This document shows, piece by piece, positions 18,450-62,592 of a stretch of 64,000 bases of DNA (within the stretch, counting starts at the first letter, position 1; every line of letters starts with the position of its first letter). Origin of the DNA: Pseudobdellovibrionaceae bacterium (lineage in GTDB: Bacteria; Bdellovibrionota; Bdellovibrionia; Bdellovibrionales; Bdellovibrionaceae). A model generated the notes under the pieces. The model saw only the letters and a list, made by a program, of their open reading frames with translations. It was not told the origin of the DNA and made no database searches. The DNA lies in assembly GCA_039810425.1 (NCBI GenBank), contig JBDHWW010000003.1:4121-68120 (forward strand). The letters are read 5' to 3'. A program made the translations under genes and the position numbers.

Positions 18450-18570
18450 CGTTACTCCTCCTTAAAGTTTTTGACCTTTAAAACTTTAAGCCATGATGGG
18501 TTATTGTCAAACCATATCAATTAGTTGTTTCGATATTGATGTTGCGTTGCCATGCGGTGATACTGAGCCC

Positions 18571-33407: not shown

Positions 33408-33671
33408 ATGTCCCAAAGAATTCTGAAAAACAGCAAAGGCCAAAGCCTGATTGAATATCTGATTATCGTTGCCATCGTCGCAGTGGGAACACTGTCAATC
33501 GTGCGTGTGGTCGGTAAAAACGTCTCCGTGCAATTCGCCAACGTGGCGAAGGCCCTTGGCAGCGGTGATGACAGCCAGCTCAAAGCCGAAAAACTCGATT
33601 CTAAAATGTATAGCAAAAAAGACTTAGGGAACTTCCTGGATGGCGCGACTTCCGGTAGCTCTAAAAAATAG
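33408..33671 (+). CDS. flp: Flp-family type IVb pilin
   Basis: MSQRILKNSKG/QSLIEYLIIVAIVAVGTL has the G/xxxxEY Flp processing motif and a hydrophobic helix. GGAGGG RBS. Confidence 0.85.
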   Translation: MSQRILKNSKGQSLIEYLIIVAIVAVGTLSIVRVVGKNVSVQFANVAKALGSGDDSQLKAEKLDSKMYSKKDLGNFLDGATSGSSKK

Positions 33672-33993
33672 TCGCGGTCAGGCCCTGATCGAAACTCTCG
33701 CACTAAGTTCGGCGCTCGTGGCGGCTCTCGGGGTTTTATTGGGAGTTCTCTATTTTGGTTTCGTGCATATCGGAGCGAACTACTTAATGCATGAGCTTCT
33801 CGTCTGCCAGGCGACTGACGGCGAGCACGGTTGCGAAAAGCAGTTTCGTTCGCGTGCGGGGTCTTTTTTGTTTGCGGCCAAAGTCCTCAGCCTCGAAAGC
33901 CGACAGAACTTCGCAGGCTATGGAGCTCGCTTGATTTTGCAAATGCCGATGAGGCGGACTTTGACCCTGAAAAAAGAACTGCGGATTTACTGA
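33640..33993 (+). CDS. TadE-like pseudopilin
   Basis: N-terminus MARLPVALKNSRGQALIETLALSSALVAALGVLLG has the same (K/R)GQxLIE motif as flp. Overlaps the flp end. Confidence 0.6.
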   Translation: MARLPVALKNSRGQALIETLALSSALVAALGVLLGVLYFGFVHIGANYLMHELLVCQATDGEHGCEKQFRSRAGSFLFAAKVLSLESRQNFAGYGARLILQMPMRRTLTLKKELRIY

Positions 33994-34730
33994 TGAAATC
34001 TTCAGAAGGTTTCGCCACTATTTTATTTTTGTCTTTGCTACCGCTGATCTTAGCTGCGGGAATTGCGCTGTTTTTTGCATTTGACCTTCTGAAGAGTGAT
34101 CTAGCGATCTTAAATGTCTGCCGTGCGAAGGCGTTGGCAGTGCAAAACAAAGCAGGTCGGAATTTGACGAAGTTGTTGAAGCTGAATCCCCGCGCTGTCA
34201 GTTTGCGCGCGGAAGAGGCCCGGGCTGAAAAGATACTGGTTTCCGCCGTGGAAAGCGGGAACCCCGGAGCGATTGCGGCGGCCGAAGCCTACTTGTTGTC
34301 AGTGAAAATGCGGCGTCAAGATCTGCACATCCGTCAAAGAGCCTTGATCGACACGGCAGATGCTTGGCTCGCGGCTGGTGGCACGGAACTACCTCGGGAG
34401 TTACAGCGAGAATGGCTTCAGCATCACCGAGGGCTGTCTTCTTGGCTCGAGAGCCGCTTTCAAACCGGGCGAACGAGTCTTGCAAAGCTTGCGGTTATGG
34501 CGGATCTCCCCGAGGTCGCGCCTGTTTATTTGCTGCGACCTGATTTTGTTGAAGCCCAAGCCTGGAAGCAGACCTGGAGTTTTCGGCTGACAACAATAGG
34601 CTGGGCACGAAGATATCTAAATTTTAACGGAGGCTTTGAAAGATCATGCACGGTTTCGTTGTATGTCGACGGCGAAGAATGGTTCGCCCGTCTGAAAAAG
34701 GACAAGTTCTCATCGAAGGGCTCTTTGTAA
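33993..34730 (+). CDS. Tad-locus membrane-anchored protein (TadG/TadF-like)
   Basis: The TGATG junction with the previous gene places the ATG at 33993. N-terminal anchor MKSSEGFATILFLSLLPLILAAGIALFFAF. The track start at 33831 is rejected. Confidence 0.55.
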   Translation: MKSSEGFATILFLSLLPLILAAGIALFFAFDLLKSDLAILNVCRAKALAVQNKAGRNLTKLLKLNPRAVSLRAEEARAEKILVSAVESGNPGAIAAAEAYLLSVKMRRQDLHIRQRALIDTADAWLAAGGTELPRELQREWLQHHRGLSSWLESRFQTGRTSLAKLAVMADLPEVAPVYLLRPDFVEAQAWKQTWSFRLTTIGWARRYLNFNGGFERSCTVSLYVDGEEWFARLKKDKFSSKGSL

Positions 34731-34840
34731 TGATTTTTTTCACCGGTATTTTACTGGTATTGATGAGTTTCGTTAGAAACCAAAACGGAGTGATGAAAAA
34801 CTATGAGCTACCTGCAAAAATTAAATATAAAAACCGATAA
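34646..34840 (+). CDS. small TadE-like pseudopilin
   Basis: ...RPSEKGQVLIEGLFVMIFFTGILLVLMSF is the third copy of the GQxLIE motif. GGAGG lies upstream of ATG 34646. It overlaps its neighbours in other frames. Confidence 0.45.
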   Translation: MHGFVVCRRRRMVRPSEKGQVLIEGLFVMIFFTGILLVLMSFVRNQNGVMKNYELPAKIKYKNR

Positions 34841-35282
34841 AGCACTTCTTATTGCTTTCGTCGGCTTAGGTGGCGCGATTTTGCTCTTAAACTTACTCGC
34901 CTCGTCCTCGACTTCGAGCGAGACTGCGGCTTCCCACAAAGACGAAGGCTATGCCGTCGACACAATGATTCCCGCGGGGTATCTCCTGATTCCCTTGGAG
35001 CTTAGCAATGCAGAATCACTGTCTTCTCTTTCAGGAAGCTTCTCGATTGTGGATCTGTATGTCACTGGTGATAAAGAAAAAAAGGGATTTAAAATCGCAG
35101 CCGCGGTCAAACTATTGCGAGCGCCACTAAACCCCCAGCAATTCGCAGTCTTGGTGCGTGAGGAGGACAGCGGAAAGATTGTCACACATGAAGGTCCCTT
35201 CTTCGCCGCGCTTAAAAACCCAAACGAAGTTTCCAAAGCCCGAACGACCAAGAATCCCCTCTTGATTCAATATGGAGAATAA
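34803..35282 (+). CDS. short CpaB/RcpC-like pilus assembly protein
   Basis: N-terminal TM segment ALLIAFVGLGGAILLLNLL, then IPAGYLLIPLEL...SFSIVDLYVTGDK resembling the CpaB C-terminal beta-clip region. Genomic context supports the call. Confidence 0.5.
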   Translation: MSYLQKLNIKTDKALLIAFVGLGGAILLLNLLASSSTSSETAASHKDEGYAVDTMIPAGYLLIPLELSNAESLSSLSGSFSIVDLYVTGDKEKKGFKIAAAVKLLRAPLNPQQFAVLVREEDSGKIVTHEGPFFAALKNPNEVSKARTTKNPLLIQYGE

Positions 35283-35287
35283 GTGTT

Positions 35288-36160
35288 ATGTTACAAAGAT
35301 ATGCTTTACTAGCCGTGCTGGTTTTTTTGAATTCCGCCCTGCCTTCGACTGCAAAAGCGATCTTGTTTCAGTCGCCGGGCTCAAACTCCGAAGAATTTCA
35401 AAACCATGCTCTTGGAAAAAATCAACTGACTTACACCCAGTGGGTTGAAAAAAATTTACAGGAGCCCGCGACAGAGCCCCATCCGCAAGTTCTTGAGTTC
35501 TCTCAACGGGCGCTTCAAGAAAAATCCTCGAAGCAGCTTGCCGCCGATTGGAAACGGATTCGACTCAATATTGATTTGAACCGGCTTGATCGCGAGATTT
35601 TGCTTTTACTTGCGGAAAAATTGCATGTGACTCAAGAACTCTGCCGCTATCTTCTTTTGGAGCCCGAAATGGCTGAACTCCTTAAGAATCCTGCTCCATC
35701 CGCCCTCTGCTCATCGCAGGCGGTTGCGCTGCCGGAGTCATTGCTCGCACACATTGATGCTCACGATCTGATTCTCATAGATGGGAAAGGGTTTACGAAA
35801 AACCAACTGCCCCCTCGTCTTGTGAACGGCTCTTACCAGTGGAAATTTGTTTCGAATCGCTTTGAGGACCGCCGTTTCACTGGGGATGCCAACGACTTGG
35901 CGGCGCTAAAAACCCCGCCACAGCCCTGGGTTCTAGGAGACTGCCAGAGTTACCGGTTTCCGAATTTAGATTTTTCTCTTCAGCTTCAATCGCAGGTCTA
36001 TTTTAGCAACGCCTGCGTCCAACCAGGAATCCCCAAAGAGAAAACCTGGGGTGATTGGGCCTCAAATCACAAAACTCTGCTTTGGGTTGTCGGCATTGTT
36101 GCGACGGGTATAGCCGCCAGTCAATTGAAAGATAAAACTTTAGTGATCACGAAGCCTTGA
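35288..36160 (+). CDS. secreted, C-terminally anchored hypothetical protein (last gene of the flp-proximal block)
   Basis: Signal peptide MLQRYALLAVLVFLNSALPSTAKA and a C-terminal TM segment LLWVVGIVATGIAASQL. No motif recognised. Confidence 0.6.
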   Translation: MLQRYALLAVLVFLNSALPSTAKAILFQSPGSNSEEFQNHALGKNQLTYTQWVEKNLQEPATEPHPQVLEFSQRALQEKSSKQLAADWKRIRLNIDLNRLDREILLLLAEKLHVTQELCRYLLLEPEMAELLKNPAPSALCSSQAVALPESLLAHIDAHDLILIDGKGFTKNQLPPRLVNGSYQWKFVSNRFEDRRFTGDANDLAALKTPPQPWVLGDCQSYRFPNLDFSLQLQSQVYFSNACVQPGIPKEKTWGDWASNHKTLLWVVGIVATGIAASQLKDKTLVITKP

Positions 36161-37429: not shown

Positions 37430-37430
37430 A

Positions 37431-37466
37431 AGCCCCTCTGTTTTAGCAGAGAGGCTTCGTTTTTTT
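37431..37466. terminator. hairpin between the Gly/Met-rich gene and the amidohydrolase gene
   Basis: AGCCCCTCTG-ttttag-CAGAGAGGCT (1 mismatch). The T7 tract is on the + side and there is only a weak U-tract on the minus side. It lies 19 nt after the 37485 stop and directly upstream of the amidohydrolase ATG. Confidence 0.4.
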
Positions 37467-37484: not shown

Positions 37485-39212
37485 CTATCGGCTACCGGCT
37501 GGGATTACGACGCCACCGCCAGTTCCTGTGGCTGGAAGGACACCCGTTCCAGTGTTTACACCATTGCCCGGAGCCGGGATTGGAATGTTCGGATTACCCG
37601 TGCCACCAATTGTGTTGAACCCGCCACCGATGTTGAAACCACCACTAACTCCAAGGCTTGTGCCGTAAGAGCCGTAACCGTATTGAACTTGTTGGATTCT
37701 GTACATCAAGTTGTAAAGCTCAGATTGTAATCCCGCCATTGTCTGCTGACGAGCCATCTGATTTTGCATTTGCTGTTGATATTGTTGCATGTAGAGCTGG
37801 GTTTGCTGCTGTTGCATTTGCATCATTGCTTGCTGCATTTGCATTGAGCCCAAGCTGCCATCCATTCCACCCATACCGTATGGATTCATCATTCCACCCA
37901 TACCGTACGGATTCATCATTCCACCCATACCGTACGGATTCATCATTCCACCCATACCGTATGGATTCATCATTCCACCCATACCGTATGGATTCATCAT
38001 TCCACCACCCATACCGTACGGATTCATCATTCCACCACCTAAGCCACCATAGATGCCGCCGCCGATGCCGCCGCCCCAAGGACCCATACCACCAGCGTAC
38101 ATGCCGCCGCCATAGGGCGCACCAAACATTCCAGATGGATATCCGAAAGCACCACCGCCCATACCGCCATAGATGCCACCGCCTATGTTAGCACCGCCGC
38201 AGCCAAATGCACCCCCGCCAATACCGCCACCCAAAGCTCCGTACAAGCCGTTCGCTAAAAATGGAAGGCCATAGCCCCATGTAGGATAAGACTGGCTTTG
38301 CCAGCCAGCCGCTGAGTTGTATTGAGCCACCATTTTGTTTTGTTGGTAACCCATATACATTGCAAGCAAACCCGTACCCACATTTGCCGCAACACCCGCC
38401 CAGTTTGGCGCTTGTCTTTCGCCGCGATAACCATTGCCGGCCGCGAGACAAGTCAAACAAATCTCACTTTCGGTGCCAGCCTGACGGTCTTCCTTGTAAC
38501 GTTGTTTTGCATCACGCAAAAGCTCTGGCAACTGACTTTTGTAGTCAGCGATACTGCTCTCAGAACGCTTGATGTCAGTTTCTGTTCTCTCCAAATCTGC
38601 TGTGTCCTTACGATACGAATCTAAAGCATCCTTACAATTCTTCGGAGAAGATCCGCCGCGATCTGACGCTGCATAGCCCGGAGTTGTACAAACTGCCGCA
38701 TTGATAACGCCTTTACCTGGCTGGCAAACCGCCTGCCATTGTTTCGGGGAAAAACCTGCCGGTGCTTTCATGAGGCTCTTTTGAGCCCCGCCATCAGCGG
38801 GTGGAAGATCATGACCATCCTCTTCAACTTGAATGCGAGTTTTTACCGGTCTAACATCACCAGTGTCATACTCTTCGCACGTGCGAAGGTTATCGATATG
38901 CTCAGTGATAGCAGAAGTGTATTTCGAATCGATCGTTTTCTCGATCATTTGGCGTGACTTGTCGAGACTTTTTTTAAGATTGCGACGCTTGCGATTCAGC
39001 TCGTTAAGTTTTGCTTTTTCTTCCGACTCAGCCTTCTTTACATCATTGTACTCATCGAGGTAGCTGGCAGCACCGTCACCTGCAGAGACATTGTAGGGGC
39101 ATGATTGTTGACCCATGATGATCCCGGCTCCCCCCATCTGTGCATTTGCAGATACCGCAAATAACGTTACGGAAGACACCGCAAGTATCGCTAATCGCTT
39201 TCCGAATTTCAT
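37485..39212 (-). CDS. secreted protein with a Cys-containing charged N-domain and an extreme Gly/Met/Tyr/Gln low-complexity C-domain
   Basis: Signal peptide MKFGKRLAILAVSSVTLFAVSANA. The C-terminal ~275 aa are GGGIGGGAFG..., then six copies of MMNPYGM(G)GG, then MQMQQAMMQMQQQQTQLYMQQYQQQMQNQM, then a G/N/T/P-rich end. Confidence 0.85.
   Translation of the reverse strand: MKFGKRLAILAVSSVTLFAVSANAQMGGAGIIMGQQSCPYNVSAGDGAASYLDEYNDVKKAESEEKAKLNELNRKRRNLKKSLDKSRQMIEKTIDSKYTSAITEHIDNLRTCEEYDTGDVRPVKTRIQVEEDGHDLPPADGGAQKSLMKAPAGFSPKQWQAVCQPGKGVINAAVCTTPGYAASDRGGSSPKNCKDALDSYRKDTADLERTETDIKRSESSIADYKSQLPELLRDAKQRYKEDRQAGTESEICLTCLAAGNGYRGERQAPNWAGVAANVGTGLLAMYMGYQQNKMVAQYNSAAGWQSQSYPTWGYGLPFLANGLYGALGGGIGGGAFGCGGANIGGGIYGGMGGGAFGYPSGMFGAPYGGGMYAGGMGPWGGGIGGGIYGGLGGGMMNPYGMGGGMMNPYGMGGMMNPYGMGGMMNPYGMGGMMNPYGMGGMMNPYGMGGMDGSLGSMQMQQAMMQMQQQQTQLYMQQYQQQMQNQMARQQTMAGLQSELYNLMYRIQQVQYGYGSYGTSLGVSGGFNIGGGFNTIGGTGNPNIPIPAPGNGVNTGTGVLPATGTGGGVVIPAGSR
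37867..38031 (-). repeat. coding tandem repeat: five 27-bp units plus one 30-bp unit
   Basis: The unit is CCACCCATACCGTAYGGATTCATCATT (+ strand). Copies differ only at one synonymous Pro-codon position. It encodes GMGGMMNPY. Confidence 0.95.
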
Positions 39213-39254
39213 ATTCGCTCTCCTGAAACAAAAATGTACACTACTTCATTCAAC

Positions 39255-39282
39255 GTATCGTCAGGAGAAGACCGAGACTTGA
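39255..39282 (-). promoter_or_regulatory. weak candidate sigma-28-like promoter for the Gly/Met-rich gene
   Basis: The minus strand reads TCAAGTCT-N12-GACGATAC, against TCAAGTTT-N11-GCCGATAC at 44402..44428. The spacer is 1 nt longer and the -10 has 2 mismatches. It overlaps the palindrome TTGACTA-N5-TAGTCAA (39279..39297). Confidence 0.25.
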
Positions 39283-39386
39283 CTATCTTTTAGTCAAACT
39301 CGAGGAGGGTTTGTATAAACTGGACCTACATCCTTGTGAAGTCGTCATCCGTGACAAGCTTACTTTCCAATTCTACACTAAGTTTT

Positions 39387-40493
39387 ATGGCGAAGCATAC
39401 AATTCTTTGCGTGGACGATGAACTAGACAATGTGGATGCGCTGGAGAGACTCTTTCGCAAGAACTATACAGTACTAAAGGCCACGTCTGGAGCACAGGGG
39501 TTGGAAGTCCTAGCCGAAAATCCAGGCGTTGCCCTGATAATCTCGGATCAAAGAATGCCGAGCATGACCGGCGTTGAGTTCCTTGAAAAGACCCAGCGCA
39601 CCCATCCTGAAGCGCTCCGCATTCTCCTCACCGGTTATACGGACATCGAATCTGTGATTCAAGCCGTGAACCAGGGACAGATTTACCGTTACCTTACGAA
39701 GCCGTGGGATTCGAATGACCTTCTGAACACCGTCGCAACAGCAACTCAGAAATATGAAATGGCGAAAGAGCTCAAAAAGAAAAACTTCGAGCTCGCTAAA
39801 GCCTTAAACGAATTGAAGAGCCTCGACAGGGCAAAAAGTAATTTCATGATTTTGATTAACCACGAGCTGAAAACTCCACTGACTTCGATCATCAGCTTTA
39901 TCGGTCTTCTGAATGAAACACAGATGGATGACGAGCAGAAACTTTTCGTCAATCGCATCTCGCGCGGTGCTGATAAATTAAAATCCATCATCGATGACGT
40001 ATTATTGATCGTGCGCGCTGAGACCAACCAATTAAAAGTGAGTTTGTCACCAGTGTCGTTTACAGGCGTACAAAACCTGCTAAATCCGGAAGTCAGCAAT
40101 GTCCTTCAATACAAGCACCAGACGCTGATAGAAAAGAACCTGGCAGTGACAGCCGCAGCCGATAAGGATTTAATCCGCCAAGTTCTCAACAGACTCGTCC
40201 ACAACGCCGCGAAGTTTGGCTCCGACAATAGCGAAATTTTTATTGAGGCATCCATGGCCGGCGACCGGCAAATTATTTATTCAGTAACGAATACGGGACC
40301 GCAAATCGAAACGCCGATGATTGAGAAAATCCTGCGCCCGTTCTTCATTGATGAAGACGTCATGAATCATTCAACGGGCATGGGTTTAGGGCTCAGTATT
40401 TGCCAATCCATCTTGGGGTTGCATCAATCGAAACTACGAATCGAAAACACAGACGAAGGTGTCCGTGTCTCTTTCAATCTACCGGCTGCCTAG
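39387..40493 (+). CDS. hybrid REC - HisKA - HATPase_c protein (receiver-first histidine kinase, no sensor domain)
   Basis: REC domain: ILCVDDELDNVDAL...IISDQRMPSMTG...YLTKPW. H-box FMILINHELKTPLTSI. ATPase motifs NAAKFG and GMGLGLSICQSI. ATG at 39387. The track GTG at 39336 is rejected. Confidence 0.85.
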   Translation: MAKHTILCVDDELDNVDALERLFRKNYTVLKATSGAQGLEVLAENPGVALIISDQRMPSMTGVEFLEKTQRTHPEALRILLTGYTDIESVIQAVNQGQIYRYLTKPWDSNDLLNTVATATQKYEMAKELKKKNFELAKALNELKSLDRAKSNFMILINHELKTPLTSIISFIGLLNETQMDDEQKLFVNRISRGADKLKSIIDDVLLIVRAETNQLKVSLSPVSFTGVQNLLNPEVSNVLQYKHQTLIEKNLAVTAAADKDLIRQVLNRLVHNAAKFGSDNSEIFIEASMAGDRQIIYSVTNTGPQIETPMIEKILRPFFIDEDVMNHSTGMGLGLSICQSILGLHQSKLRIENTDEGVRVSFNLPAA

Positions 40494-41374
40494 CGGCTGA
40501 CTGCCTTCATTCTTAAATATCGTTCAGACTTCGGCACAAAAGGCTTTAGAGGTGTTGCCATGGACTTCGCCAGATTGATTCCGAGCTCCATGCCCGAGAA
40601 AGCTTGCTGTGCCGTTAAGAAATGCTTCTCCGCCCCGTAAAACGTAAAGGATGAGAAAGACGGGCCTGATTTGTAACCGGCACCTTCTTTCTTAATCTGA
40701 TCTTGCAAAAATCCATTTGGTGTCAGCAATGCCAAGTCCCAACCGAGCGCCTGAGCCCAGCGCTTTTCTTCGTCACTAGAAACGGCGGTGAGCTCCACAC
40801 CACGAAGGACTTGCTTACCACTCGCAGTCGTCATTTTTAAGAGGCCGTAAACTCCGTAATGAATTGCCGAGAGCATTTTATTTTGTTCCCAAAAATCTTT
40901 TAGCAGGCGTTTTAGGTCTCCGTTTCCCGGCAGATCATACATTGCCGCCATACCGCCCGCGATCAGTATTGAGGAGTAATCTTTGGCCTGAACCGCTGAA
41001 AGCTTTTTCGTGCTCGTCAGCTTTGCAACTGCATTTTCATCGCTCAGAAATCCCCGAGTGAGAGCATCATCAGCATTCATTGCATTGAGATTACGTGGAT
41101 CGCTTTTCTGTTCAATCGGTACGGCACCACCTTGCGGACTCGCGAAATCCACTTCATAGCCTGCGTTTAGCAATGCAAAGTATGGATGAACCGCGTCCGG
41201 CAGCCACACCCCCGTTTTGATCTGGCTGCTCCCCAGTTGCGCCCGGCTCGACAACACGATCAAGACTTTCCCTTTCGATATGAGAAATGTATTACGAATC
41301 TCCGCATAGGCAGTCACGACCAGTACGGAAATACCAAGCACTGCAAGAATCGACTTTAGAATCAGGGGTTTCAT
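40490..41374 (-). CDS. periplasmic DJ-1/PfpI (class I glutamine-amidotransferase-like) protein, apparently lacking the nucleophile Cys
   Basis: Signal peptide MKPLILKSILAVLGISVLVVTAYA with an AAAGGAG RBS. The fold pattern is KVLIVLSS...GYEVDFASPQGG...YSSILIAGGMAAMYDL. Where family members have A-I-C-H-G, this protein reads SAIHYG. Confidence 0.55.
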   Translation of the reverse strand: MKPLILKSILAVLGISVLVVTAYAEIRNTFLISKGKVLIVLSSRAQLGSSQIKTGVWLPDAVHPYFALLNAGYEVDFASPQGGAVPIEQKSDPRNLNAMNADDALTRGFLSDENAVAKLTSTKKLSAVQAKDYSSILIAGGMAAMYDLPGNGDLKRLLKDFWEQNKMLSAIHYGVYGLLKMTTASGKQVLRGVELTAVSSDEEKRWAQALGWDLALLTPNGFLQDQIKKEGAGYKSGPSFSSFTFYGAEKHFLTAQQAFSGMELGINLAKSMATPLKPFVPKSERYLRMKAVSR

Positions 41375-41578
41375 CGGCGGCTCCTTTAAATGAGGCTCTA
41401 GGATCGCCAATATCCTGTTTGCTTGCGACCCAACAGTCTTCCGATTTTGTGAAATTACCTTCCAAGCACGGACCACCGGATCTTAAAATCCGAATTTGGG
41501 ATGCCGACGCCGCTAGAAGGACATTTGAGTCCAGCCCCGTTTTTGCTGAGAGCATTCTTTATGTCCAGCGAGGTGGTT

Positions 41579-42889
41579 ATGAGGAGCGGGGTCTTCGTCT
41601 TATTATGGATTTGTTTACAGGCTTCCACAGGCAATGCTGAGTCTTTGGTTTTAAAAATTGGCGAAGACTATCGTTTGCCCATTCCTTCAAACCACCGGGT
41701 TTGGGTTCAAAACCGCAAGCTTCTGAGTATTTCTACCCAGGGTGGTTTCGTTATTTTAAACGGCCTGAACGAGGGCCAAACCACCCTGCAAGTGGGAGGC
41801 AAAGGTTACCAAGTTCAAGTGATTCAACCGTTAAAAAGGAACTTGCTGCAAAACTTCGAGAAAGAACTGCGCAATGTCCTCGGCCTTAAAATTCAAATCA
41901 AAAAATACCAAGTCACGGTGACCGGCAAGATCTATCGCTGGGAAGACTGGCAGCTCCTCGCCAAAATCAGCGAAGACACCGGCGTCAGTTATGCGATGAG
42001 TGCTGAAATTCCACCGAGCCTGCAGGCAAAAGCGCTGGCTGCTTGGCAACAAGAGTTTGATCGCGCAGGCCTTGCAGCCCTGCCCGTGCATTTTGCTCGT
42101 CCTTTGCAAGCTCGAAGCGCCGTGGACCCGCAACTCTTTGCCAAATACTCAGATATCCTAGGGCCTTACGGCATTGTGCTTGAAAAAGATGCGCAGGCGT
42201 TGGATATGGCTCCCGTCGTAAAGGTTCAAATCACGGTGGCTGAAGTTCGCAGGGACTTTGCGCAGAAATATGGTCTTCAATGGCCGGCCAGCTACTCCGC
42301 CAAGGTTTTGTCCAACGGGCAAACAGAGTTTGAAGATGTCATCTTCGCGGCCCAAGCGTTTGAACAACAAGGCCGCGGCAAAATCCTCGCAAGCCCGAAT
42401 CTGATCTGTCGAAGCGGCAAAGAAGCGGAATTTCTCGCGGGCGGAGAGTTTCCGATCAAAATTTCCAACTATAAAACGCAGGATGTCGTTTGGAAAAAGT
42501 ACGGGATCCTCTTAAAGGTGCGACCCAAGGCGGACTCTTCCGGGCGCATGAGCATTGGTATTGAAACCGAAGTATCCACCATCGACAATAGCCGGACGGT
42601 TGAAGGCATTCCGGGGCTCTTGACGAACCGAATCTCTTCGCACTTTGATCTGAGCCGTTCGCAGACAATCGTCCTTTCAGGGCTGATTAAAAACGAAGAA
42701 GGCAAATCCACAGAGGGCCTTCCGGGCCTCAGCCGTATTCCCGTTTTGGGAGCGCTCTTTGGCAGCCGTGACTTCAAGGAAAATCGCACGGAATTAGTGA
42801 TTCTTGTTCGCCCGTCGGTTGTGCGTGAAAATACCATGGCCGAAAGCGTGGATTCGTCTCAGCACCTTGGAGATATCAAACATGATTGA
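41579..42889 (+). CDS. cpaC: Tad/Flp pilus secretin CpaC/RcpA
   Basis: The C-terminus GLPGLSRIPVLGALFGSRDFKENRTELVILVRPSVV is the secretin signature. BON/N-domain-like upstream region. ATG at 41579 has a GAGGTGG RBS and the signal peptide MRSGVFVLLWICLQASTGNA. Confidence 0.85.
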   Translation: MRSGVFVLLWICLQASTGNAESLVLKIGEDYRLPIPSNHRVWVQNRKLLSISTQGGFVILNGLNEGQTTLQVGGKGYQVQVIQPLKRNLLQNFEKELRNVLGLKIQIKKYQVTVTGKIYRWEDWQLLAKISEDTGVSYAMSAEIPPSLQAKALAAWQQEFDRAGLAALPVHFARPLQARSAVDPQLFAKYSDILGPYGIVLEKDAQALDMAPVVKVQITVAEVRRDFAQKYGLQWPASYSAKVLSNGQTEFEDVIFAAQAFEQQGRGKILASPNLICRSGKEAEFLAGGEFPIKISNYKTQDVVWKKYGILLKVRPKADSSGRMSIGIETEVSTIDNSRTVEGIPGLLTNRISSHFDLSRSQTIVLSGLIKNEEGKSTEGLPGLSRIPVLGALFGSRDFKENRTELVILVRPSVVRENTMAESVDSSQHLGDIKHD

Positions 42890-43985
42890 GCAGTTCCGAG
42901 CGGCCTTCGCTAAAACCCAGCAGCACCTTCACGAAGCCGCCGACCGTGGCTACGGCCATGAGGAGTTTTGGCGCACACAAAACTCTGAAAAGTTCCGTGA
43001 GGCCCTCGAAGCCAGCCTGCACAATGAAGCTCCTGAAACACAAAAGCGGCTGACCGCTGAGTATTTTACCTATGGCCCACTTGATCATTTATTTGCTGAC
43101 GAAAACATCACAGAAATACTGGTGAACGGTCCTGAGTCGATCTGGTTTGAAAAAGACGGACGCCTACAGAGGCATCAGGATCTTTTTCTCTCAGACTCTA
43201 GTTACAATAATGCCCTTCACCGTCTTTGTGAAAAATCTCAATGCCAAAGCACCGTGGAACACCCAGCAGCCACGGGATTCTTTGATGAGTTTAGACTCAC
43301 TCTCGTTCGACAAGAACTCACCCGGAATCATCATCATTTGTCCCTACGACGACATCCGAAGAATCCTTGGACGTTGGAACGGTTGCTGAGTTGCGGCTGG
43401 GCTTCAGAGTCTGAGATTCTAGTACTTCGCGATTTGATGAATCGTCAGCAGAACTTTCTCATTGTCGGCAGCACCGGCAGTGGTAAGACGTCGCTCATCA
43501 ATGCTCTTCTACAGAGTATGCCCACAAATGAGCGGGCGATTGTCATCGAGGATACTCCGGAAATTGAGCTCCCGAACCCTGCGTGTATGAAGATGGTCAC
43601 GCGCGAAGATCCTCAGGGCGTTTTGAAGAGTGTGACTCAAAGTGACCTCCTCAGGCACTCGCTGCGGCTTCGACCTGATCGCATTATAATGGGTGAAATC
43701 CGCGGCCCGGAAGCAAAAGATCTTCTGATGGCTTTAGCCACCGGTCACGGAGGGAGTTTCGGGACTTTGCACGCGAGTGATCCTCGTCAGGCTCTGATTC
43801 GGCTCGAGATGCTGATTCAGATGGGTGCCCCGCAATGGAATCTGCAAGCCGTACGAAGGCTCATACATTTGAGCTTAAACTGTATTTTAGTCGTAGAGAA
43901 AACGCCCGAAGGAAAAAGAAAATTCCAGGGAGCATATAAGATATGTTCCCTGGAAGAAAATGGCTTTTTAGTCGAAAAGATTTAG
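42882..43985 (+). CDS. cpaF: Tad/Flp pilus ATPase CpaF/TadA
   Basis: Walker A GSTGSGKTS, Asp box AIVIEDTPEI, Walker B RPDRIIMGEIRGPEA and His box TGHGGSFGTLHA. 8-nt overlap with cpaC. Confidence 0.9.
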   Translation: MIEQFRAAFAKTQQHLHEAADRGYGHEEFWRTQNSEKFREALEASLHNEAPETQKRLTAEYFTYGPLDHLFADENITEILVNGPESIWFEKDGRLQRHQDLFLSDSSYNNALHRLCEKSQCQSTVEHPAATGFFDEFRLTLVRQELTRNHHHLSLRRHPKNPWTLERLLSCGWASESEILVLRDLMNRQQNFLIVGSTGSGKTSLINALLQSMPTNERAIVIEDTPEIELPNPACMKMVTREDPQGVLKSVTQSDLLRHSLRLRPDRIIMGEIRGPEAKDLLMALATGHGGSFGTLHASDPRQALIRLEMLIQMGAPQWNLQAVRRLIHLSLNCILVVEKTPEGKRKFQGAYKICSLEENGFLVEKI

Positions 43986-47895: not shown

Positions 47896-49023
47896 ATGAA
47901 AAAGAAAGTGGCGGCCAAAAAGCCGAAGGAAAAAGCAAGCTCGGCCAAGAAGCCTGGAACTAAACCTGTTACTCAGCCTGTTGCGAAGAAAGCAACTTTG
48001 GCGAAAAAACCGGTCAAAGCCAAAGCCGTCGTCGCAGAAATTGTGGACGATACCGGCACGCTTGCGCCTGAAGAAGCTGCCCCCGAGATCGGCAAGGCCT
48101 ATGCAATACCCAACGAACGCGACATCGAGGAAGAGTTTGGCCTCAATGACGGGCCGACAAAAGGCTTGGTTCCTGCGGCAGATTCTAAGGCGATCACCTC
48201 AACTTCAGATCCGCTGGCGATTTACCTCGCCGATGTCCGCAAGTATCCGGTTCTGAGTAAAGAAGAAGAGCAAAAAATCGCTAAGAAATACTTCGAAACC
48301 AAAGATCCTGAAGCGGCACAGATTCTAGTGAAATCAAATCTTCGTTTTGTCGTGAAAGTTGCCGCTGAATATTCCAAATTCGGCGCAAAGATGATCGATC
48401 TTATTCAAGAAGGCAATGTGGGCCTGATGCACGCCGTGCGCGAATTCAATCCATACAAAGGCGCGCGTTTGATCACCTACGCTGTTTGGTGGATTCGTGG
48501 TTACATTCAGGAATACTTGATGCGCCAATATTCGATGGTTCGTATCGGCACGACTCAAAACCAGCGAAAACTTTTCTATCAATTGCAGAAGGAAAAAGAC
48601 GCACTCGATGCCATGGGGCAGTCCCCAGACATCGCGCTCTTAAGTTCTCGTCTCGGTATTCCTGAAGACGAAGTAGCGCAAATGGCGCAGCGGATGTCAG
48701 GCCGTGATGTGAGTCTTGACCGCCCCCTGGACGATGATTCTGGCGGCACGCTGATGGATTTTCAAAAATCCACGGCTGACATGAGTGTTGATGAGCGTAT
48801 CGCGCACGAGGAAGAACTAGAGATCTTAAAAAAGAAACTCGAAGAAATCCGTCCCGAACTTTCTGAGCGCGAAAAAATTATTCTTGATGAGCGCATTCTC
48901 AATGATGATCCGCTGACTCTGCAGGAAATCGGCGAAAAGCACGGTATCACTCGTGAAGCCGTCCGCCAAATGGAAGTCCGTGTGATGAAAAAAATCAAAG
49001 CCAAGATGGAAGAGCTGAAATAG
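47896..49023 (+). CDS. rpoH: RpoH-like (sigma-32 family) sigma factor with a ~105-aa Lys/Ala/Pro-rich N-terminal extension
   Basis: Regions 2-4 align by eye with E. coli RpoH, including LIQEGNVGLMHAVREFNP and the RpoH-box-like TTQNQRKLFYQLQK. The N-terminus is MKKKVAAKKPKEKASSAKKPGTKPVTQPVAKKATLAKKPVKAKA... Confidence 0.75.
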   Translation: MKKKVAAKKPKEKASSAKKPGTKPVTQPVAKKATLAKKPVKAKAVVAEIVDDTGTLAPEEAAPEIGKAYAIPNERDIEEEFGLNDGPTKGLVPAADSKAITSTSDPLAIYLADVRKYPVLSKEEEQKIAKKYFETKDPEAAQILVKSNLRFVVKVAAEYSKFGAKMIDLIQEGNVGLMHAVREFNPYKGARLITYAVWWIRGYIQEYLMRQYSMVRIGTTQNQRKLFYQLQKEKDALDAMGQSPDIALLSSRLGIPEDEVAQMAQRMSGRDVSLDRPLDDDSGGTLMDFQKSTADMSVDERIAHEEELEILKKKLEEIRPELSEREKIILDERILNDDPLTLQEIGEKHGITREAVRQMEVRVMKKIKAKMEELK

Positions 49024-51865: not shown

Positions 51866-52672
51866 TTAAGCAACCTCAAGTTCACCCACGCCAATGCTTT
51901 GCTGCAACTTCACGCGAAGCCTTGCCACCGCTTGGGCGTGGAGTTGAGAGACGCGGCTCTCTGTTACGCGCAGAACCTGACCGATCTCTTTTAAATTCAG
52001 ATCTTCAAAGTAATACAAAGAAAGCACCAAGCGCTGACGCTCCGGTAGTTCCTCGATGGCCTGCGCCACGACTTCTTTGATGGATTTGATATTGAGCTGA
52101 TTGAACGGATTGTTCAATTTTGAACCTTCCAAAAGGTTTAAGATCGACTTGTGGTCGTCGTTACTGAAGGATTGGCTGTTATCAATGGAAAGCAGGCTCA
52201 CCGGACGAACTTGGTTCACGAGATCATGAAACTCATCGACCGTGATATTGAGAGCTTTAGAAACTTCCTCATCTGTCGGCGCACGGCCGAGTTCATTTTC
52301 AAGATTTGCCATTGTCTTATCGAGAAGTTTTGCTTTATCACGAATAGAACGTGGCACCCAGTCTTGGGCGCGGAGTTCATCGAGGATCGCGCCGCGGATG
52401 CGGAACTCGGCATAAGTTTTAAATTTATTGTCGCGAGTCGGATCGTATTTATCGATGGCGTCCATTAAACCGATCACACCTGCAGAGATCAAATCATCCA
52501 GTTCAATATTAGAAGGGAGGCGCACGGCGATCTTTTGTGCGACGAACTTAATCAGCGGAGCGTATTCCTTAATCAACTCATCCTTTTGTTTCTGGGTGAG
52601 TTTCTTAGGCTCTTCTTTGTATTTTTTCAGCAATGCCACGTTTTTCGCCATACGTTCCCTCTGTAATTCCAT
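51866..52672 (-). CDS. fliA: flagellar sigma factor FliA (sigma-28)
   Basis: Region 2 (PLIKFVAQKI...LISAGVIGLMDAIDKYDP), region 3 and region 4 (LSLYYFEDLNLKEIGQVLRVTESRVSQLH). An internal ATG at 52651 has a better RBS (AGAGGGAA) and may be the true start. Confidence 0.85.
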   Translation of the reverse strand: MELQRERMAKNVALLKKYKEEPKKLTQKQKDELIKEYAPLIKFVAQKIAVRLPSNIELDDLISAGVIGLMDAIDKYDPTRDNKFKTYAEFRIRGAILDELRAQDWVPRSIRDKAKLLDKTMANLENELGRAPTDEEVSKALNITVDEFHDLVNQVRPVSLLSIDNSQSFSNDDHKSILNLLEGSKLNNPFNQLNIKSIKEVVAQAIEELPERQRLVLSLYYFEDLNLKEIGQVLRVTESRVSQLHAQAVARLRVKLQQSIGVGELEVA

Positions 52673-52711
52673 GTTAGCAAACGGATACCAGTTCTAAAAA
52701 GTCCAATTCCC

Positions 52712-58059: not shown

Positions 58060-58073
58060 CTAAATGTTCCTTC

Positions 58074-58841: not shown

Positions 58842-58864
58842 TGCGTAGAACAAATGCGTCCCCT

Positions 58865-59137: not shown

Positions 59138-59146
59138 CGTCCACTC

Positions 59147-60974: not shown

Positions 60975-60986
60975 GATGGCATCCCC

Positions 60987-61991: not shown

Positions 61992-62000
61992 GTTCGACCT

Positions 62001-62546: not shown

Positions 62547-62592
62547 TTCATCCTCCTTGATGAATAGACACACCGATCTCAGTAAGTTATTA

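What the first reader, a model, noticed from the sequence alone, without database searches (positions are those of the whole stretch)
37485..39297. Secreted Gly/Met/Tyr/Gln low-complexity repeat protein encoded inside the Tad pilus locus
The 575-aa product has three parts:
- a signal peptide;
- a ~300-aa charged, coiled-coil-like N-domain with about 10 Cys;
- a ~275-aa C-domain made almost only of G, M, Y, P, N and Q.

The C-domain contains GGGIGGGAFG-type stretches, six tandem GMGGMMNPY units, then MQMQQAMMQMQQQQTQLYMQQYQQQMQNQM.

The DNA repeat (five 27-bp units and one 30-bp unit) is identical except for one synonymous site. That suggests recent expansion or concerted evolution, and slipped-strand length variation is plausible.

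I know of no characterised bacterial family with this composition. Methionine-rich MxxM-type tracts are established Cu(I)-binding or oxidant-scavenging elements in CopA/PcoA/CusF-type periplasmic proteins. G/Y/Q/M-rich domains are classic phase-separating or amyloid-prone sequences. Either role would be new for a protein embedded between pilus genes.

A weak FliA-like promoter and a TTGACTA-N5-TAGTCAA palindrome lie in the shared divergent region with a REC-first histidine kinase.
Basis: partly seen in the sequence, partly recalled or inferred. Interest (0 to 1): 0.75.

Follow-up and report, generated by a model that had tools for sequence, protein, structure and literature searches.

The report
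Predation-linked Gly/Met-rich exported Bdellovibrio protein
This gene encodes an exported protein found only in Bdellovibrio-type predatory bacteria, with a rigid stalk joined to a rubber-like glycine/methionine-rich segment; its counterpart in the model predator is needed for predation, but nobody has studied how it works.

Summary
ORF 37485..39212 (-) encodes a 575-aa protein with these parts:
- a type I signal peptide;
- a confidently predicted antiparallel helical-hairpin stalk carrying a Cys-rich knob;
- a Gly-rich hydrophobic helical hairpin;
- a 118-aa uncharged G/M/Y/P tract;
- a Q/M-rich helix;
- a G/S/T tail ending in Arg.

It matches no Pfam, NCBIfam or PDB entry. It belongs to a conserved family restricted to Bdellovibrionales, with 212 clusters at 50% identity. 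In this family the Cys residues, the C-terminal Arg and the G/M-rich uncharged composition are conserved. The repeat unit and the tract length (35-258 aa) change quickly and in frame.

By gene order the window matches the B. bacteriovorus HD100 flp3 region, which makes the gene the orthologue of Bd3304. Public supplementary tables show that Bd3304 is:
- attack-phase induced;
- detected by 18 peptides;
- a strong Tn-seq predation-fitness hit (W about 0.001-0.01) with near-normal attachment and prey-rounding scores.

The upstream TCAAG-N16-ACGATA element fits the Bdellovibrio FliA promoter consensus and is conserved in nine orthologous loci.

Copper binding and on/off phase variation are not supported. 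A functional link to the Tad genes is unproven. My best reading is a self-associating, elastic envelope scaffold or tether; that mechanism is inferred, not shown.

The parts
37485..39212 (-). CDS, 575 aa (stop codon 37485-37487); orthologue by position of B. bacteriovorus HD100 Bd3304
   Evidence: ORF listing. 159 homologues. Gene order matches other genomes. Bd3303/Bd3304/Bd3305 annotations.
39141..39212 (-). Type I signal peptide, residues 1-24 (cleavage after SANA)
   Evidence: Read directly from the sequence. Equivalent A-x-A sites occur in the homologues. No predictor was run.
39063..39140 (-). Conserved N-terminal motif, residues 25-50 (family consensus QxWGTGMxGGMQxCPY...AGxGAxS), containing Cys38
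   Evidence: G28, G30 and C38 are invariant or nearly so in the alignments. Low pLDDT.
38478..39059 (-). Antiparallel helical-hairpin stalk (helices 52-93 and 190-245) carrying a Cys-rich knob (residues 94-189; C112, C163, C175, C193, H105)
   Evidence: AlphaFold2 pLDDT is mostly above 90. The head-only model has pLDDT 78. No Foldseek PDB match.
38448..38459 (-). Invariant CxxC (C252-L-T-C255) at the base of the stalk, preceded by TEGG
   Evidence: C252 and C255 are invariant in 120 sequences.
38199..38402 (-). Most conserved segment, residues 271-338: two Gly-rich hydrophobic helices (271-302, 312-326) ending at invariant Cys338. Not canonical transmembrane helices.
   Evidence: Alignment. 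AlphaFold2 pLDDT 70-80. The Kyte-Doolittle 19-residue mean never exceeds 1.6 in 120 homologues. No Pfam glycine-zipper hit.
37845..38198 (-). Uncharged G/M/Y/P low-complexity tract, residues 339-456, predicted disordered
   Evidence: Composition. pLDDT below 50. In the family the tract is 35-258 aa with median G 35%, M 23%, charged 0.4%.
37872..38039 (-). Tandem DNA repeat: 2 x 30 bp then 4 x 27 bp (GG(G)MMNPYGM), identical except for CCG/CCA
   Evidence: TRF: period 27, 6.3 copies, 94% matches. Unit-by-unit parse.
37680..37844 (-). Conserved Q/M-rich helix, residues 457-511; its C-terminal half has a heptad pattern
   Evidence: AlphaFold2 helix 459-511, pLDDT about 60. Conserved consensus. 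Heptad check: 62% hydrophobic at a/d positions in the best register.
37488..37679 (-). G/S/T/P-rich tail, residues 512-575, ending ...VVIPAGSR; the C-terminal Arg is conserved
   Evidence: The C-terminal residue is R in 113 of 120 homologues; the other seven end in G (4), T, M or H, and one of those (P0072) is the frameshift-truncated strain W product.
39218..39224 (-). Ribosome-binding site AGGAGAG, 5 nt upstream of the ATG
   Evidence: Sequence. TCAGGAGA is invariant in nine orthologous upstream regions.
39256..39282 (-). FliA (sigma-28)-type attack-phase promoter candidate: TCAAG (39282-39278), N16, ACGATA (39261-39256)
   Evidence: The pattern occurs twice in the window against 0.08 expected by chance. 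AGTCAAGTC and CCTGACGA are invariant in nine loci. Published consensus is TTAAG-N16-CCGATA (PMC3627812).
39279..39297 (.). Palindrome TTGACTA-N5-TAGTCAA; the promoter-proximal arm overlaps the -35 element
   Evidence: Sequence. Conserved as TTGACyA-N5-kAGTCAA in orthologous loci, imperfect in two of them.
37430..37457 (-). Terminator-like hairpin (11 pairs) between the stop codon and the downstream amidohydrolase start; the T-tract is weak
   Evidence: Consensus scan only.

Best explanation
What it is (well supported). The gene is the orthologue of B. bacteriovorus Bd3304. It belongs to a protein family confined to Bdellovibrionales. The product is Sec-exported and probably disulfide-bonded. 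It is transcribed from a conserved FliA-type attack-phase promoter.

Parts, in order:
- a roughly 100-residue antiparallel helical stalk with a Cys-rich knob;
- a CxxC motif;
- a highly conserved Gly-rich hydrophobic helical hairpin that is too weakly hydrophobic to be a normal membrane span;
- an uncharged, disordered Gly/Met/Tyr/Pro tract;
- a Q/M-rich coiled-coil-like helix;
- a G/S/T tail ending in Arg.

How it works (inferred). I propose a mechanical or structural envelope element rather than an enzyme or a metal-binding protein.
- The structured N-terminal module docks to a partner or to a membrane surface.
- The Q/M helix and tail drive self-association or anchoring.
- The G/M tract between them acts as a flexible, cohesive, abductin-like entropic linker. 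Selection keeps its composition, while its length and repeat unit drift through in-frame repeat gain and loss.

Tn-seq data on the orthologue place the requirement after prey attachment and rounding, or in survival of the attack-phase cell.
For: Family and architecture:
- 159 homologues were found, and every one that carries a taxon name is from Bdellovibrionales.
- An exhaustive HMMER scan with residues 25-345 gave 212 clusters at 50% identity.
- Eight Cys and the C-terminal Arg are invariant or nearly so.
- The AlphaFold2 stalk has pLDDT above 90. The tract is disordered. Helix 459-511 is predicted.
- There is no Pfam, NCBIfam or PDB relative.

Linker behaviour:
- Across the family the tract is 35-258 aa, with median G 35% and M 23% and about 0% charged residues.
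- In clusters at >90% identity, almost all indels fall within the tract, and all of them are in frame.
- Different 24-30-bp units have expanded in different lineages.

Composition parallels:
- The abductin Gly/Met domain has the consensus GGFGGMGGGX and is treated as an entropic elastomer (PMC13052691).
- GroEL Gly/Met tails resemble abductin (PMC12571646).

Orthology with Bd3304:
- The gene order Flp ... amidohydrolase - target - REC-HK - secretin - CpaF ... RpoH-like sigma ... FliA and the flagellar export genes matches HD100.
- The corresponding HD100 genes are bd3297, Bd3303, Bd3304, Bd3305, bd3306, bd3307 and bd3318.

Expression and phenotype of Bd3304:
- 11.7-fold attack-phase induction.
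- Tn-seq fitness W of 0.0036 and 0.060 in the full screen, and 0.0009-0.0099 in the mini screen.
- Attachment score 0.72 and prey-rounding score 0.89 (PMC6561027 Data Sets S4-S6).
- 18 unique peptides. Abundance dips at 3-4 h and rises at 5-7 h (PMC12546842).

Promoter.
Against: - No experiment or computation here addresses elasticity, self-association, localisation or binding partners.
- The HD100 Bd3304 sequence itself could not be retrieved. Orthology therefore rests on gene order and on that protein's published annotations ('PE family', Phyre hits to collagen and colicin Ia).
- The Tn-seq attachment and rounding scores come from pooled assays. The rounding score has a large spread (0.89 +/- 0.65) and was measured at high multiplicity of infection, so the stage of the defect is uncertain. 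No complementation of the Bd3304 mutant is on record.
- High Met content is conserved in about 95% of members. That could reflect Met-specific chemistry rather than generic flexibility.
- The invariant CxxC could be a redox or metal site.
- Both paralogue lineages lie next to two-component genes. This fits a sensing role at least as well as a purely structural one.
Confidence: 0.5

Rival explanations
1. Envelope sensor or modulator for a two-component system. The exported protein reports envelope state (distance, stretch, redox or damage during prey entry) to a neighbouring kinase, in the way accessory periplasmic proteins do. The flexible tract would act as a reach or a ruler.
For: - Both paralogue lineages lie beside two-component genes. 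Group A is divergent from a REC-HisKA-HATPase kinase in at least 15 loci.
- Group B lies 40-57 bp downstream of an OmpR-type regulator, with or without a HAMP kinase, in 10 loci. It is convergent with a YkuD L,D-transpeptidase.
- A conserved palindrome overlaps the target's -35 element.
- The invariant CxxC and the Met-rich tract could be redox-sensitive.
Against: - The group A kinase has no recognised membrane or periplasmic domain (Pfam shows only REC, HisKA and HATPase). Direct periplasmic contact is therefore unlikely.
- In several group B loci the kinase is missing.
- Bd3305 does not appear in the mini Tn-seq hit list, whereas Bd3304 does.
- Gene order in this region is conserved for unrelated housekeeping genes as well.
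Confidence: 0.2
2. Part of, or cargo for, the neighbouring Tad-like (flp3) secretin-ATPase apparatus. Examples would be a periplasmic plug or gasket, an alignment element, or a secreted substrate.
For: - Linkage with the secretin, the TadA/CpaF-like ATPase and the Flp/pilin-like genes persists from 57% down to about 25% protein identity.
- bd3307 (cpaF) is part of the attack-phase pilus gene set (PMC3818213).
- Tad-like Kil systems are tied to predation in related predators (PMC8460266).
Against: - The protein shows no homology to any Tad, Rcp or Flp component. It has a type I signal peptide, not a prepilin one.
- In HD100, flp3 is silent and can be deleted without a predation defect (PMC5430801), yet Bd3304 is a strong hit.
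- Bd3306 and Bd3307 are absent from the mini Tn-seq tables held as text.
- Group B paralogues are not near pilus genes.
- The locus has no TadB/C platform proteins.
Confidence: 0.12
3. One reading: the Met-rich tract binds Cu(I)/Ag(I) or acts as a sacrificial methionine sink against oxidants in the periplasm.
For: - MGGM (MxxM) spacing recurs in the repeats.
- The tract is 19% Met, and the family median is 23%.
- An invariant G-I/V-C-x-x-C motif lies just upstream. From my own recollection it superficially resembles the GMxCxxC motif of copper chaperones.
Against: - The tract contains no His and only one acidic residue (D450, read from the translation); known periplasmic Met-rich copper sites usually combine Met with His or Asp (my own knowledge).
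- No cupredoxin, CusF, CopC or HMA domain is present.
- No cop/cus/pco genes or metal-type regulators are in the 64-kb window.
- Met content drops to 4-9% in some members, while Gly and the lack of charge persist.
- Expression follows the attack-phase programme, and the phenotype concerns predation itself.
Confidence: 0.08
4. A contingency (phase-variable) locus in which slippage in the repeat switches the protein on and off.
For: - The tandem units are near-identical.
- Close strains differ in tract length.
- The strain W orthologue is split by a frameshift inside the repeat tract.
Against: - All units are multiples of 3 bp (24, 27, 30). Every indel seen between close relatives is in frame.
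- The single frameshift, in an older assembly, could be a sequencing error.
- The gene is under strong selection during predation.
Confidence: 0.04

Closest known systems
B. bacteriovorus HD100 Bd3304 (UniProt Q6MI66; 109J locus EP01_RS01730), an uncharacterised 'hypothetical protein'
   Same: - It occupies the same position between the Amidohydro_3 hydrolase (Bd3303) and the REC kinase (Bd3305), next to the secretin (bd3306) and cpaF (bd3307) and downstream of flp3 (bd3297).
- Its published annotations ('PE family protein'; Phyre hits to collagen and colicin Ia) fit a Gly-rich tract plus a long helical hairpin.
- It is attack-phase induced, which agrees with the conserved FliA-type promoter found here.
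   Different: - I could not retrieve its sequence, so identity and tract length are unknown.
- The window's organism is a different species: the closest homologue recovered is only 66% identical over the best local alignment (72% of the query).
- Bd3304 is mentioned only in supplementary tables, and no molecular study exists in the searchable literature.
Abductin, the molluscan hinge-ligament elastomer
   Same: - Both have a Gly/Met-rich, nearly uncharged, low-complexity domain. The abductin consensus is GGFGGMGGGX; here the tract contains GGGIGGGAFG, GGMGGGAFG and GGMMNPYGM.
- Both have Cys and Tyr available for cross-linking next to the tract.
- Both are extracytoplasmic (PMC13052691).
   Different: - There is no evidence of common ancestry; the resemblance is compositional only.
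- Abductin is a small metazoan matrix protein with very little Pro.
- This protein is bacterial, has 8% Pro and 9% Tyr in the tract, and places the tract between two structured modules.
- Elasticity is untested.
GroEL/Hsp60 C-terminal (GGM)n tails
   Same: Both are Gly/Met-rich, flexible and mildly hydrophobic segments in a bacterial protein. The GroEL tails are noted to resemble abductin and to sample polyproline-II conformations (PMC12571646).
   Different: GroEL tails are about 19 residues long, cytoplasmic and attached to a chaperonin ring. Here the tract is 118 aa (up to 258 aa in the family), exported and built from evolving tandem repeats.
Periplasmic Met-rich copper proteins (CopA/PcoA Met-rich loops, CusF, CopC/PcoC)
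   Same: Both are exported and Met-rich, with MxxM-type spacing.
   Different: - This protein has none of their folds and no His partners.
- It is not in a metal-resistance operon.
- Met content is not uniformly conserved across the family.
Envelope-spanning proteins with low-complexity spacers (TonB Pro-rich region, TolA domain II). The comparison is by logic, from my own knowledge.
   Same: A structured module at each end is joined by a long spacer of biased composition that tolerates changes in length.
   Different: - TonB and TolA have a true N-terminal membrane anchor and charged or helical spacers.
- This protein has a cleavable signal peptide, no canonical transmembrane segment and an uncharged Gly/Met spacer.
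- There is no sequence similarity.

Membership tests
Bd3304-type family (Bdellovibrionales-specific, uncharacterised) | Full-length sequence homology with the shared architecture: signal peptide, WGTG...C motif, stalk and knob, CxxC, conserved Gly-rich hairpin ending in FGC, G/M tract, Q/M helix, C-terminal Arg | tested here: met
   159 hits with E down to 1e-238. Alignments with invariant Cys. 212 representative clusters. C-terminal R in 113/120.
Bd3304-type family (Bdellovibrionales-specific, uncharacterised) | Position between the Amidohydro_3 gene and the REC-HisKA-HATPase gene, next to the secretin and CpaF-like ATPase (group A orthologues) | tested here: met
Strain W and AZI86 loci. HD100 tags Bd3303/3304/3305 and bd3306/3307.
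Bd3304-type family (Bdellovibrionales-specific, uncharacterised) | Direct sequence alignment with HD100 Bd3304 itself | not testable with these tools
   Two further homology searches did not return the HD100 protein. No tool gives access to the HD100 genome.
Bdellovibrio FliA (sigma-28) attack-phase regulon | Promoter TTAAG-N16-CCGATA upstream of the gene | tested here: met
   TCAAG-N16-ACGATA at 39282..39256: 9 of 11 bases match, with exact spacing. It occurs twice in the window against 0.08 expected by chance. It is invariant in nine orthologous loci. Consensus from PMC3627812.
Bdellovibrio FliA (sigma-28) attack-phase regulon | Attack-phase-specific expression and dependence on FliA | not testable with these tools
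   For the orthologue, 11.7-fold attack-phase induction is tabulated (PMC6561027 Data Set S6). Bd3304 was not found in the held supplements of the promoter-mapping paper. FliA dependence has not been measured.
Tad/Flp pilus machinery proteins | Homology to a Tad, Rcp, Cpa or Flp family, or a prepilin (G/XXXXE) leader | tested here: not met
   No Pfam or NCBIfam hit. The N-terminus is a type I signal peptide.
Tad/Flp pilus machinery proteins | Consistent genomic association with Tad genes | tested here: inconclusive
   Group A is always near the secretin, ATPase and Flp genes. However, the whole region keeps its gene order, and group B paralogues lie elsewhere.
Periplasmic Met-rich Cu(I)-binding proteins (CopA/PcoA, CusF, CopC/PcoC) | Cupredoxin, CusF or CopC fold, or Met/His motif arrays | tested here: not met
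   No family hit even at E<=10 on sub-segments. No His appears among the ten commonest residue types, which cover 116 of the tract's 118 residues; the translation shows none.
Periplasmic Met-rich Cu(I)-binding proteins (CopA/PcoA, CusF, CopC/PcoC) | Metal-resistance operon context | tested here: not met
   No cop/cus/pco genes among the Pfam-scanned ORFs of the window (mostly those of 120-150 aa or more).
Periplasmic Met-rich Cu(I)-binding proteins (CopA/PcoA, CusF, CopC/PcoC) | Cu(I)/Ag(I) binding | not testable with these tools
   Needs biochemistry.
Abductin-like elastomeric proteins | Gly/Met-rich, nearly uncharged repetitive domain | tested here: met
   G 43%, M 19%, one charged residue in 118 aa. 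Family medians G 35%, M 23%, charged 0.4%. Abductin description in PMC13052691.
Abductin-like elastomeric proteins | Rubber-like elasticity of a cross-linked network | not testable with these tools
   Needs purified protein and mechanical measurement.
Simple-sequence contingency loci | A repeat whose copy-number change shifts the reading frame or alters a promoter | tested here: not met
   Units are 27 and 30 bp here and 24-30 bp in orthologues. Indels between close relatives are in frame.
Glycine-zipper two-helix membrane domains (SlyB/Rick_17kDa/Gly-zipper families) | Match to the Pfam glycine-zipper models | tested here: not met
   No hit at E<=10 for residues 255-345 or the equivalent segments of two homologues. 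The resemblance is only a recollection of mine.

The most novel reading that the evidence does not exclude
This may be a bacterial counterpart of an elastomer or cohesive-gel protein. In this reading, an exported Gly/Met-rich entropic spring or self-cohesive mesh, held by a disulfide-locked stalk and a Q/M coiled coil, does one of two things. It gives the attack-phase predator envelope the deformability or sealing capacity it needs to pass through and close the entry pore in prey. Alternatively, it works as a stretch-sensitive tether read out by the adjacent two-component proteins.
Probability: 0.15. Interest if true: 0.85.

Novelty: categorically new. Interest (0 to 1): 0.62.

Why it matters
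How Bdellovibrio enters prey, establishes itself inside and survives the process is still largely unexplained, and many predation-essential genes are annotated only as 'hypothetical'.

This analysis gives one of the strongest such Tn-seq hits a concrete anatomy:
- a defined family with invariant residues that can be mutated (eight Cys, the CxxC, the C-terminal Arg);
- a conserved attack-phase promoter with an overlapping operator-like palindrome;
- a paralogue lineage tied to a two-component system and an L,D-transpeptidase;
- a naturally variable Gly/Met tract that invites linker-swap experiments.

If the tract proves to be an elastic or gel-forming element, it would be a new class of bacterial envelope material. 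It would also be an independent evolutionary route to abductin-like chemistry. If not, the family still marks an unexplored step of predation that follows attachment.

Tried and rejected
- **Known families:** Pfam and NCBIfam scans of the whole protein and of sub-segments (N-domain, hairpin, C-terminus) at E up to 10 gave only chance coiled-coil or Q-rich hits, for example DUF4175 at E=0.0017.
- **Solved structures by sequence:** a PDB profile search found nothing below E=0.26.
- **Solved structures by fold:** Foldseek against the PDB with the full model gave only generic long-hairpin matches at E>1 (dynein stalk, V-ATPase stalk, flagellin). With the head-only model it gave no matches at all.
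- **Retrieving HD100 Bd3304:** I queried with the B. bacteriovorus Bd16 orthologue, first full length and then N-domain only. Neither search listed the HD100 protein. An exact look-up of the window protein in the contig index also found nothing.
- **Locus assignment:** I first suspected the flp4 locus (bd2719-2720). I rejected it because Bd2723-2726 are a different, minor-pilin-type operon of other sizes.
- **Sigma factor:** I asked whether the sigma factor at 47896-49023 was FliA. It is RpoH-like. The FliA-like sigma is at 51866-52672.
- **Membrane hairpin:** a two-span inner-membrane hairpin topology for residues 271-337 was considered and set aside, because hydrophobicity is below the transmembrane range in all 120 homologues.
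- **RNA elements:** Rfam found no RNA family in the window.
- **Literature:** Bd3304 and the bd3298-bd3305 tags appear in no main text of the searchable library, and no paper combines 'Bdellovibrio' with 'methionine-rich'.
- **Promoter map:** the supplements of the promoter-mapping paper held as text do not contain bd3304.

Full report
**1. The observation**

The minus-strand ORF 37485..39212 encodes 575 aa and starts at an ATG preceded by AGGAGAG. The N-terminus, MKFGKRLAILAVSSVTLFAVSANA|Q, reads as a type I signal peptide with an A-x-A cleavage site. This is my reading of the sequence; no predictor was available.

Composition by segment:
- Residues 25-270 are charged and mixed.
- Residues 339-456 are G 43%, M 19%, Y 9%, P 8%, N 6%, with one charged residue.
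- Residues 457-511 are Q 40%, M 18%.
- Residues 512-575 are rich in G, T, N, P, V and I, and end in ...VVIPAGSR.

There are eight Cys (38, 112, 163, 175, 193, 252, 255, 338), not about ten.

Tandem Repeats Finder reports a 27-bp period, 6.3 copies and 94% matches at 37863..38036. Parsed unit by unit, the array is two 30-bp units (GGGMMNPYGM) followed by four 27-bp units (GGMMNPYGM) at 37872..38039. The units differ only at the third base of the Pro codon. The long ORFs in other frames and on the other strand across this stretch are by-products of the repeat. The palindrome TTGACTA-N5-TAGTCAA lies at 39279..39297.

**2. Structure prediction**

With a 120-sequence alignment, AlphaFold2 gave the following:
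- Two long helices (52-93 and 190-245) at pLDDT mostly above 90. They form an antiparallel hairpin carrying a partly structured Cys-rich head (about residues 94-189).
- Two further helices (271-302 and 312-326) at pLDDT 70-80.
- Disorder from 331 to 456.
- A long helix (459-511) at pLDDT about 60.
- A disordered tail.

Foldseek against the PDB returned only generic stalk-like hairpins at E>1. A separate model of the head (residues 90-205, pLDDT 78) found no PDB match at all. A PDB profile search by sequence was also empty.

The two hydrophobic helices after the stalk are the best-conserved part of the protein. Their Kyte-Doolittle 19-residue mean never exceeds 1.6 in any of 120 homologues; the medians are 0.92 and 0.82. 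I therefore do not treat them as ordinary membrane spans. No Pfam glycine-zipper model matches them.

**3. The family**

A word-indexed search found 159 homologues. Every hit that carries a taxon name is Bdellovibrio, Pseudobdellovibrionaceae or Bdellovibrionales, and all are annotated 'hypothetical' or carry evidently spurious names. An exhaustive HMMER scan with residues 25-345 found 212 clusters at 50% identity with E<=1e-3, and 143 with E<=1e-10. Most of the stronger matches align over nearly the whole query; many weaker ones match in two stretches or only its C-terminal two-thirds.

Conserved features:
- The Cys residues, H105 and the CxxC are invariant or nearly so.
- So are the segment TDWxxVxANVGxGLxAxYxGYxxNKMV...GWPTQ...YGA.GGG.G.G.FGC and several Gly/Pro residues just after it.
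- The C-terminal residue is Arg in 113 of 120 sequences. The other seven end in G (four), T, M or H, and at least one of those (P0072) is a frameshift-truncated product.

The low-complexity tract behaves differently. Its length runs from 35 to 258 aa (median 150). Its composition is held: median G 35%, M 23%, charged residues 0.4%. The repeat unit differs by lineage:
- a 27-bp GGGMGGYPM unit in L003;
- a 24-bp MGMPMMGG unit, 21 copies, in L015;
- a 30-bp unit, 10.8 copies, in L008.

Within clusters of >90% identical proteins, nearly all indels sit in this tract and all are in frame. Repeat-length polymorphism is therefore real, but it changes length rather than switching the protein on and off. 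One exception is the strain W orthologue, which is split by a frameshift inside the tract. I cannot tell whether that is an assembly error.

**4. Genomic setting**

The neighbours, in window order:
- FolD.
- A Flp-like ORF at 33408-33671 (Pfam Flp_Fap E=8.6e-5, below the curated cutoff).
- Several ORFs with pilin-like G-x-x-x-x-E N-termini.
- Two ORFs with no family match.
- An Amidohydro_3 gene.
- The target.
- Divergently, a REC-HisKA-HATPase kinase.
- A DJ-1/PfpI gene.
- A secretin.
- A TadA/CpaF-like ATPase.
- An OYE reductase.
- AspRS.
- An RpoH-like sigma factor.
- A FliA-like sigma factor, followed by the flagellar export operon.

No TadB/C, TadZ, CpaB or prepilin peptidase is present in the window.

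The block from FolD to AspRS keeps its order in at least 15 Bdellovibrionales loci, with target identity from 57% down to about 25%. It does so in strains W and AZI86 as well. Because housekeeping genes share in this conserved order, it is weak evidence for a functional link to the pilus genes.

A second paralogue lineage (group B: P0027, P0019, P0075) always lies just downstream of an OmpR-type response regulator, with or without a HAMP kinase. It is convergent with a YkuD L,D-transpeptidase and far from pilus genes. Both lineages therefore sit next to two-component genes.

**5. Mapping to the model organism**

The literature gives these HD100 assignments:
- flp3 = bd3297 and fliA = bd3318 (PMC5430801).
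- bd3306 'pilQ' and bd3307 'cpaF' (PMC3818213).
- Bd3303 = metal-dependent TIM-barrel hydrolase, Bd3304 = uncharacterised, Bd3305 = response-regulator receiver protein (PMC12546842 supplement).

Counting genes from the Flp ORF to the ATPase in the window reproduces this numbering, if the DJ-1 gene is left out. Most syntenic loci lack that gene. The target is therefore the orthologue by position of Bd3304. I could not retrieve the Bd3304 sequence to confirm this directly. Its published annotations ('PE family protein'; Phyre hits to collagen and colicin Ia) fit a Gly-rich tract plus a long helical hairpin.

**6. What is already measured for Bd3304**

In Duncan et al. 2019 (PMC6561027, Data Sets S4-S6):
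- Full Tn-seq fitness was 0.0036 on planktonic V. cholerae and 0.060 on V. cholerae biofilm.
- Mini Tn-seq fitness was 0.0009, 0.0052, 0.0099 and 0.0037 across V. cholerae and E. coli, planktonic and biofilm.
- The attachment score was 0.72 +/- 0.11 (hits were below 0.5).
- The prey-rounding score was 0.89 +/- 0.65 (hits were below 0.4).
- The killing assay was not done.
- The same table lists 11.7-fold attack-phase induction, taken from Karunker et al.

In the 2025 quantitative proteome, Bd3304 was identified by 18 unique peptides. Log10 abundance was 6.61 in attack phase, fell to 6.29 at 4 h and rose to 6.83 at 7 h.

The protein is therefore made, follows the attack-phase programme, and matters greatly for predatory fitness. 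The defect appears to lie after attachment and rounding, or in survival of the attack-phase cell. The pooled, high-multiplicity rounding assay and its large error make that staging tentative. No main text in the searchable literature discusses Bd3304.

**7. Regulation**

On the coding strand, upstream of the target, the sequence is TCAAG-N16-ACGATA (39282..39256). The published Bdellovibrio attack-phase/FliA consensus is TTAAG-N16-CCGATA (PMC3627812). The pattern occurs twice in the window against 0.08 expected by chance.

In an alignment of nine orthologous upstream regions, AGTCAAGTC, CCTGACGA and the ribosome-binding site TCAGGAGA are invariant, while the flanking sequence diverges. The palindrome is conserved as TTGACyA-N5-kAGTCAA, and its proximal arm overlaps the -35 element. 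That is the arrangement expected of an operator controlling this promoter; this is an inference. A terminator-like hairpin with a weak T-tract lies between the stop codon and the amidohydrolase start.

**8. Interpretation**

Firmly supported: this is an exported, Cys-stabilised, attack-phase protein of a lineage-specific family with no characterised relatives, and its model-organism orthologue is required for efficient predation.

Inferred mechanism: a structured N-terminal docking module and a C-terminal self-association or anchoring module (Q/M helix, tail, invariant Arg) are joined by an uncharged Gly/Met/Tyr/Pro tract. Selection acts on the tract's physical character rather than its sequence. 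The closest analogues in composition are the abductin Gly/Met domain (consensus GGFGGMGGGX, an entropic elastomer; PMC13052691) and the Gly/Met tails of GroEL (PMC12571646). I therefore favour a flexible, cohesive structural or tethering role in the envelope.

Rivals:
- A sensing role coupled to the neighbouring two-component proteins is a serious rival, because both paralogue lineages sit next to such genes.
- A role in the adjacent Tad-like apparatus is possible. It is weakened because flp3 is silent and dispensable in HD100, the protein has no Tad-like features, and group B lies elsewhere.
- The copper/oxidant idea lacks the usual His partners, fold and operon context. The invariant CxxC and the widely conserved Met enrichment keep it from being excluded.
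- On/off phase variation does not fit repeat units that are multiples of 3 bp.

**9. Novelty and score**

No known family, fold or system accommodates this protein, and I know of no other bacterial protein with such a domain. Its importance has been visible only as one line in supplementary tables since 2019. I rate it as lying outside known kinds. The mechanism is conjectural, and the link to the phenotype rests on gene order rather than on a direct alignment. Interest is 0.62.

Noticed in passing
window 33408-36160 (+): A Flp-like pilin ORF at 33408-33671 (Pfam Flp_Fap E=8.6e-5, N_methyl E=0.003) overlaps a spurious 121-aa ORF on the opposite strand. It is followed by ORFs with pilin-like N-termini: GQALIE at 33640-33993, GQVLIE at 34646-34840, and GFATILFLSLLP within 33831-34730. 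Two ORFs with no family match (159 and 290 aa) come next. By position this is the HD100 flp3 (bd3297) cluster. It may encode a minor-pilin 'tip' set like those described for Kil/Tad pili (PMC12075869).
   Followed up: partly
window 41501-43985 (+): The secretin and the TadA/CpaF-like ATPase (bd3306/bd3307 by position) have no TadB/C platform, TadZ, CpaB or prepilin peptidase anywhere in the 64-kb window. The apparatus is incomplete on its own and would have to borrow parts encoded elsewhere.
   Followed up: partly
window 39345-39387: A second conserved palindrome (GTCACGGATGAC) overlaps a sigma-70-like GTGACA-17-TACACT promoter at 39351-39379 (+). That promoter ends 8 nt before the likely true ATG of the REC-HK at 39387; homologues align from residue 17-20 of the GTG-started ORF. 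The kinase mRNA may therefore be leaderless.
   Followed up: no
window 40490-41476 (-): Among the syntenic loci, the DJ-1/PfpI-family gene between the kinase and the secretin is present only here and in Bdellovibrio sp. HCB337 (L004). It looks like a lineage-specific insertion.
   Followed up: partly
L027 10001-12095 (B. bacteriovorus W, CP002190.1): The orthologue BDW_12090 is split into 420-aa and 279-aa ORFs by a frameshift inside the G/M repeat tract. The second ORF carries the remaining repeats, the Q/M helix and the tail ending in Arg. A 647-aa full-length protein sits in the same 90% cluster. This is either a sequencing error or a real frameshift.
   Followed up: partly
L028 4864-10624; L030 4886-9996; also L001, L007, L009-L011, L013, L014, L021: A second paralogue lineage always lies directly downstream of an OmpR-type response regulator (a HAMP histidine kinase is present in 7 of 10 loci). 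It is convergent with a YkuD L,D-transpeptidase that carries a PG-binding domain. This suggests a link to the cell envelope and to signalling.
   Followed up: partly
window 47896-49023 (+) and 51866-62609 (-): An RpoH-like sigma factor has a roughly 100-aa N-terminal extension. Further along are a FliA-like sigma factor (268 aa) and then FlhG, FlhF, FlhA, FlhB, FliR, FliP, FliO, FliM and FliL. The target therefore lies about 13 kb from the gene for the sigma factor that probably transcribes it.
   Followed up: partly
window 37430-37457 (-): An 11-bp-stem hairpin ends immediately before the ATG of the downstream Amidohydro_3 gene (37429). It could attenuate read-through or occlude that gene's translation start. 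The pairing of target and amidohydrolase is conserved in all group A loci.
   Followed up: no
window 18493-21507 (+), 669-3236 (-), 3242-4474 (-): Three large ORFs (1004, 855 and 410 aa) have no Pfam match at E<=1e-5. They are further uncharacterised proteins in the window.
   Followed up: no
window 37750-38500: GC skew is strongly negative (down to -0.35) across the repeat tract on the plus strand. I attribute it to the density of Gly (GGN) and Met codons on the coding (minus) strand, not to a replication signal.
   Followed up: yes
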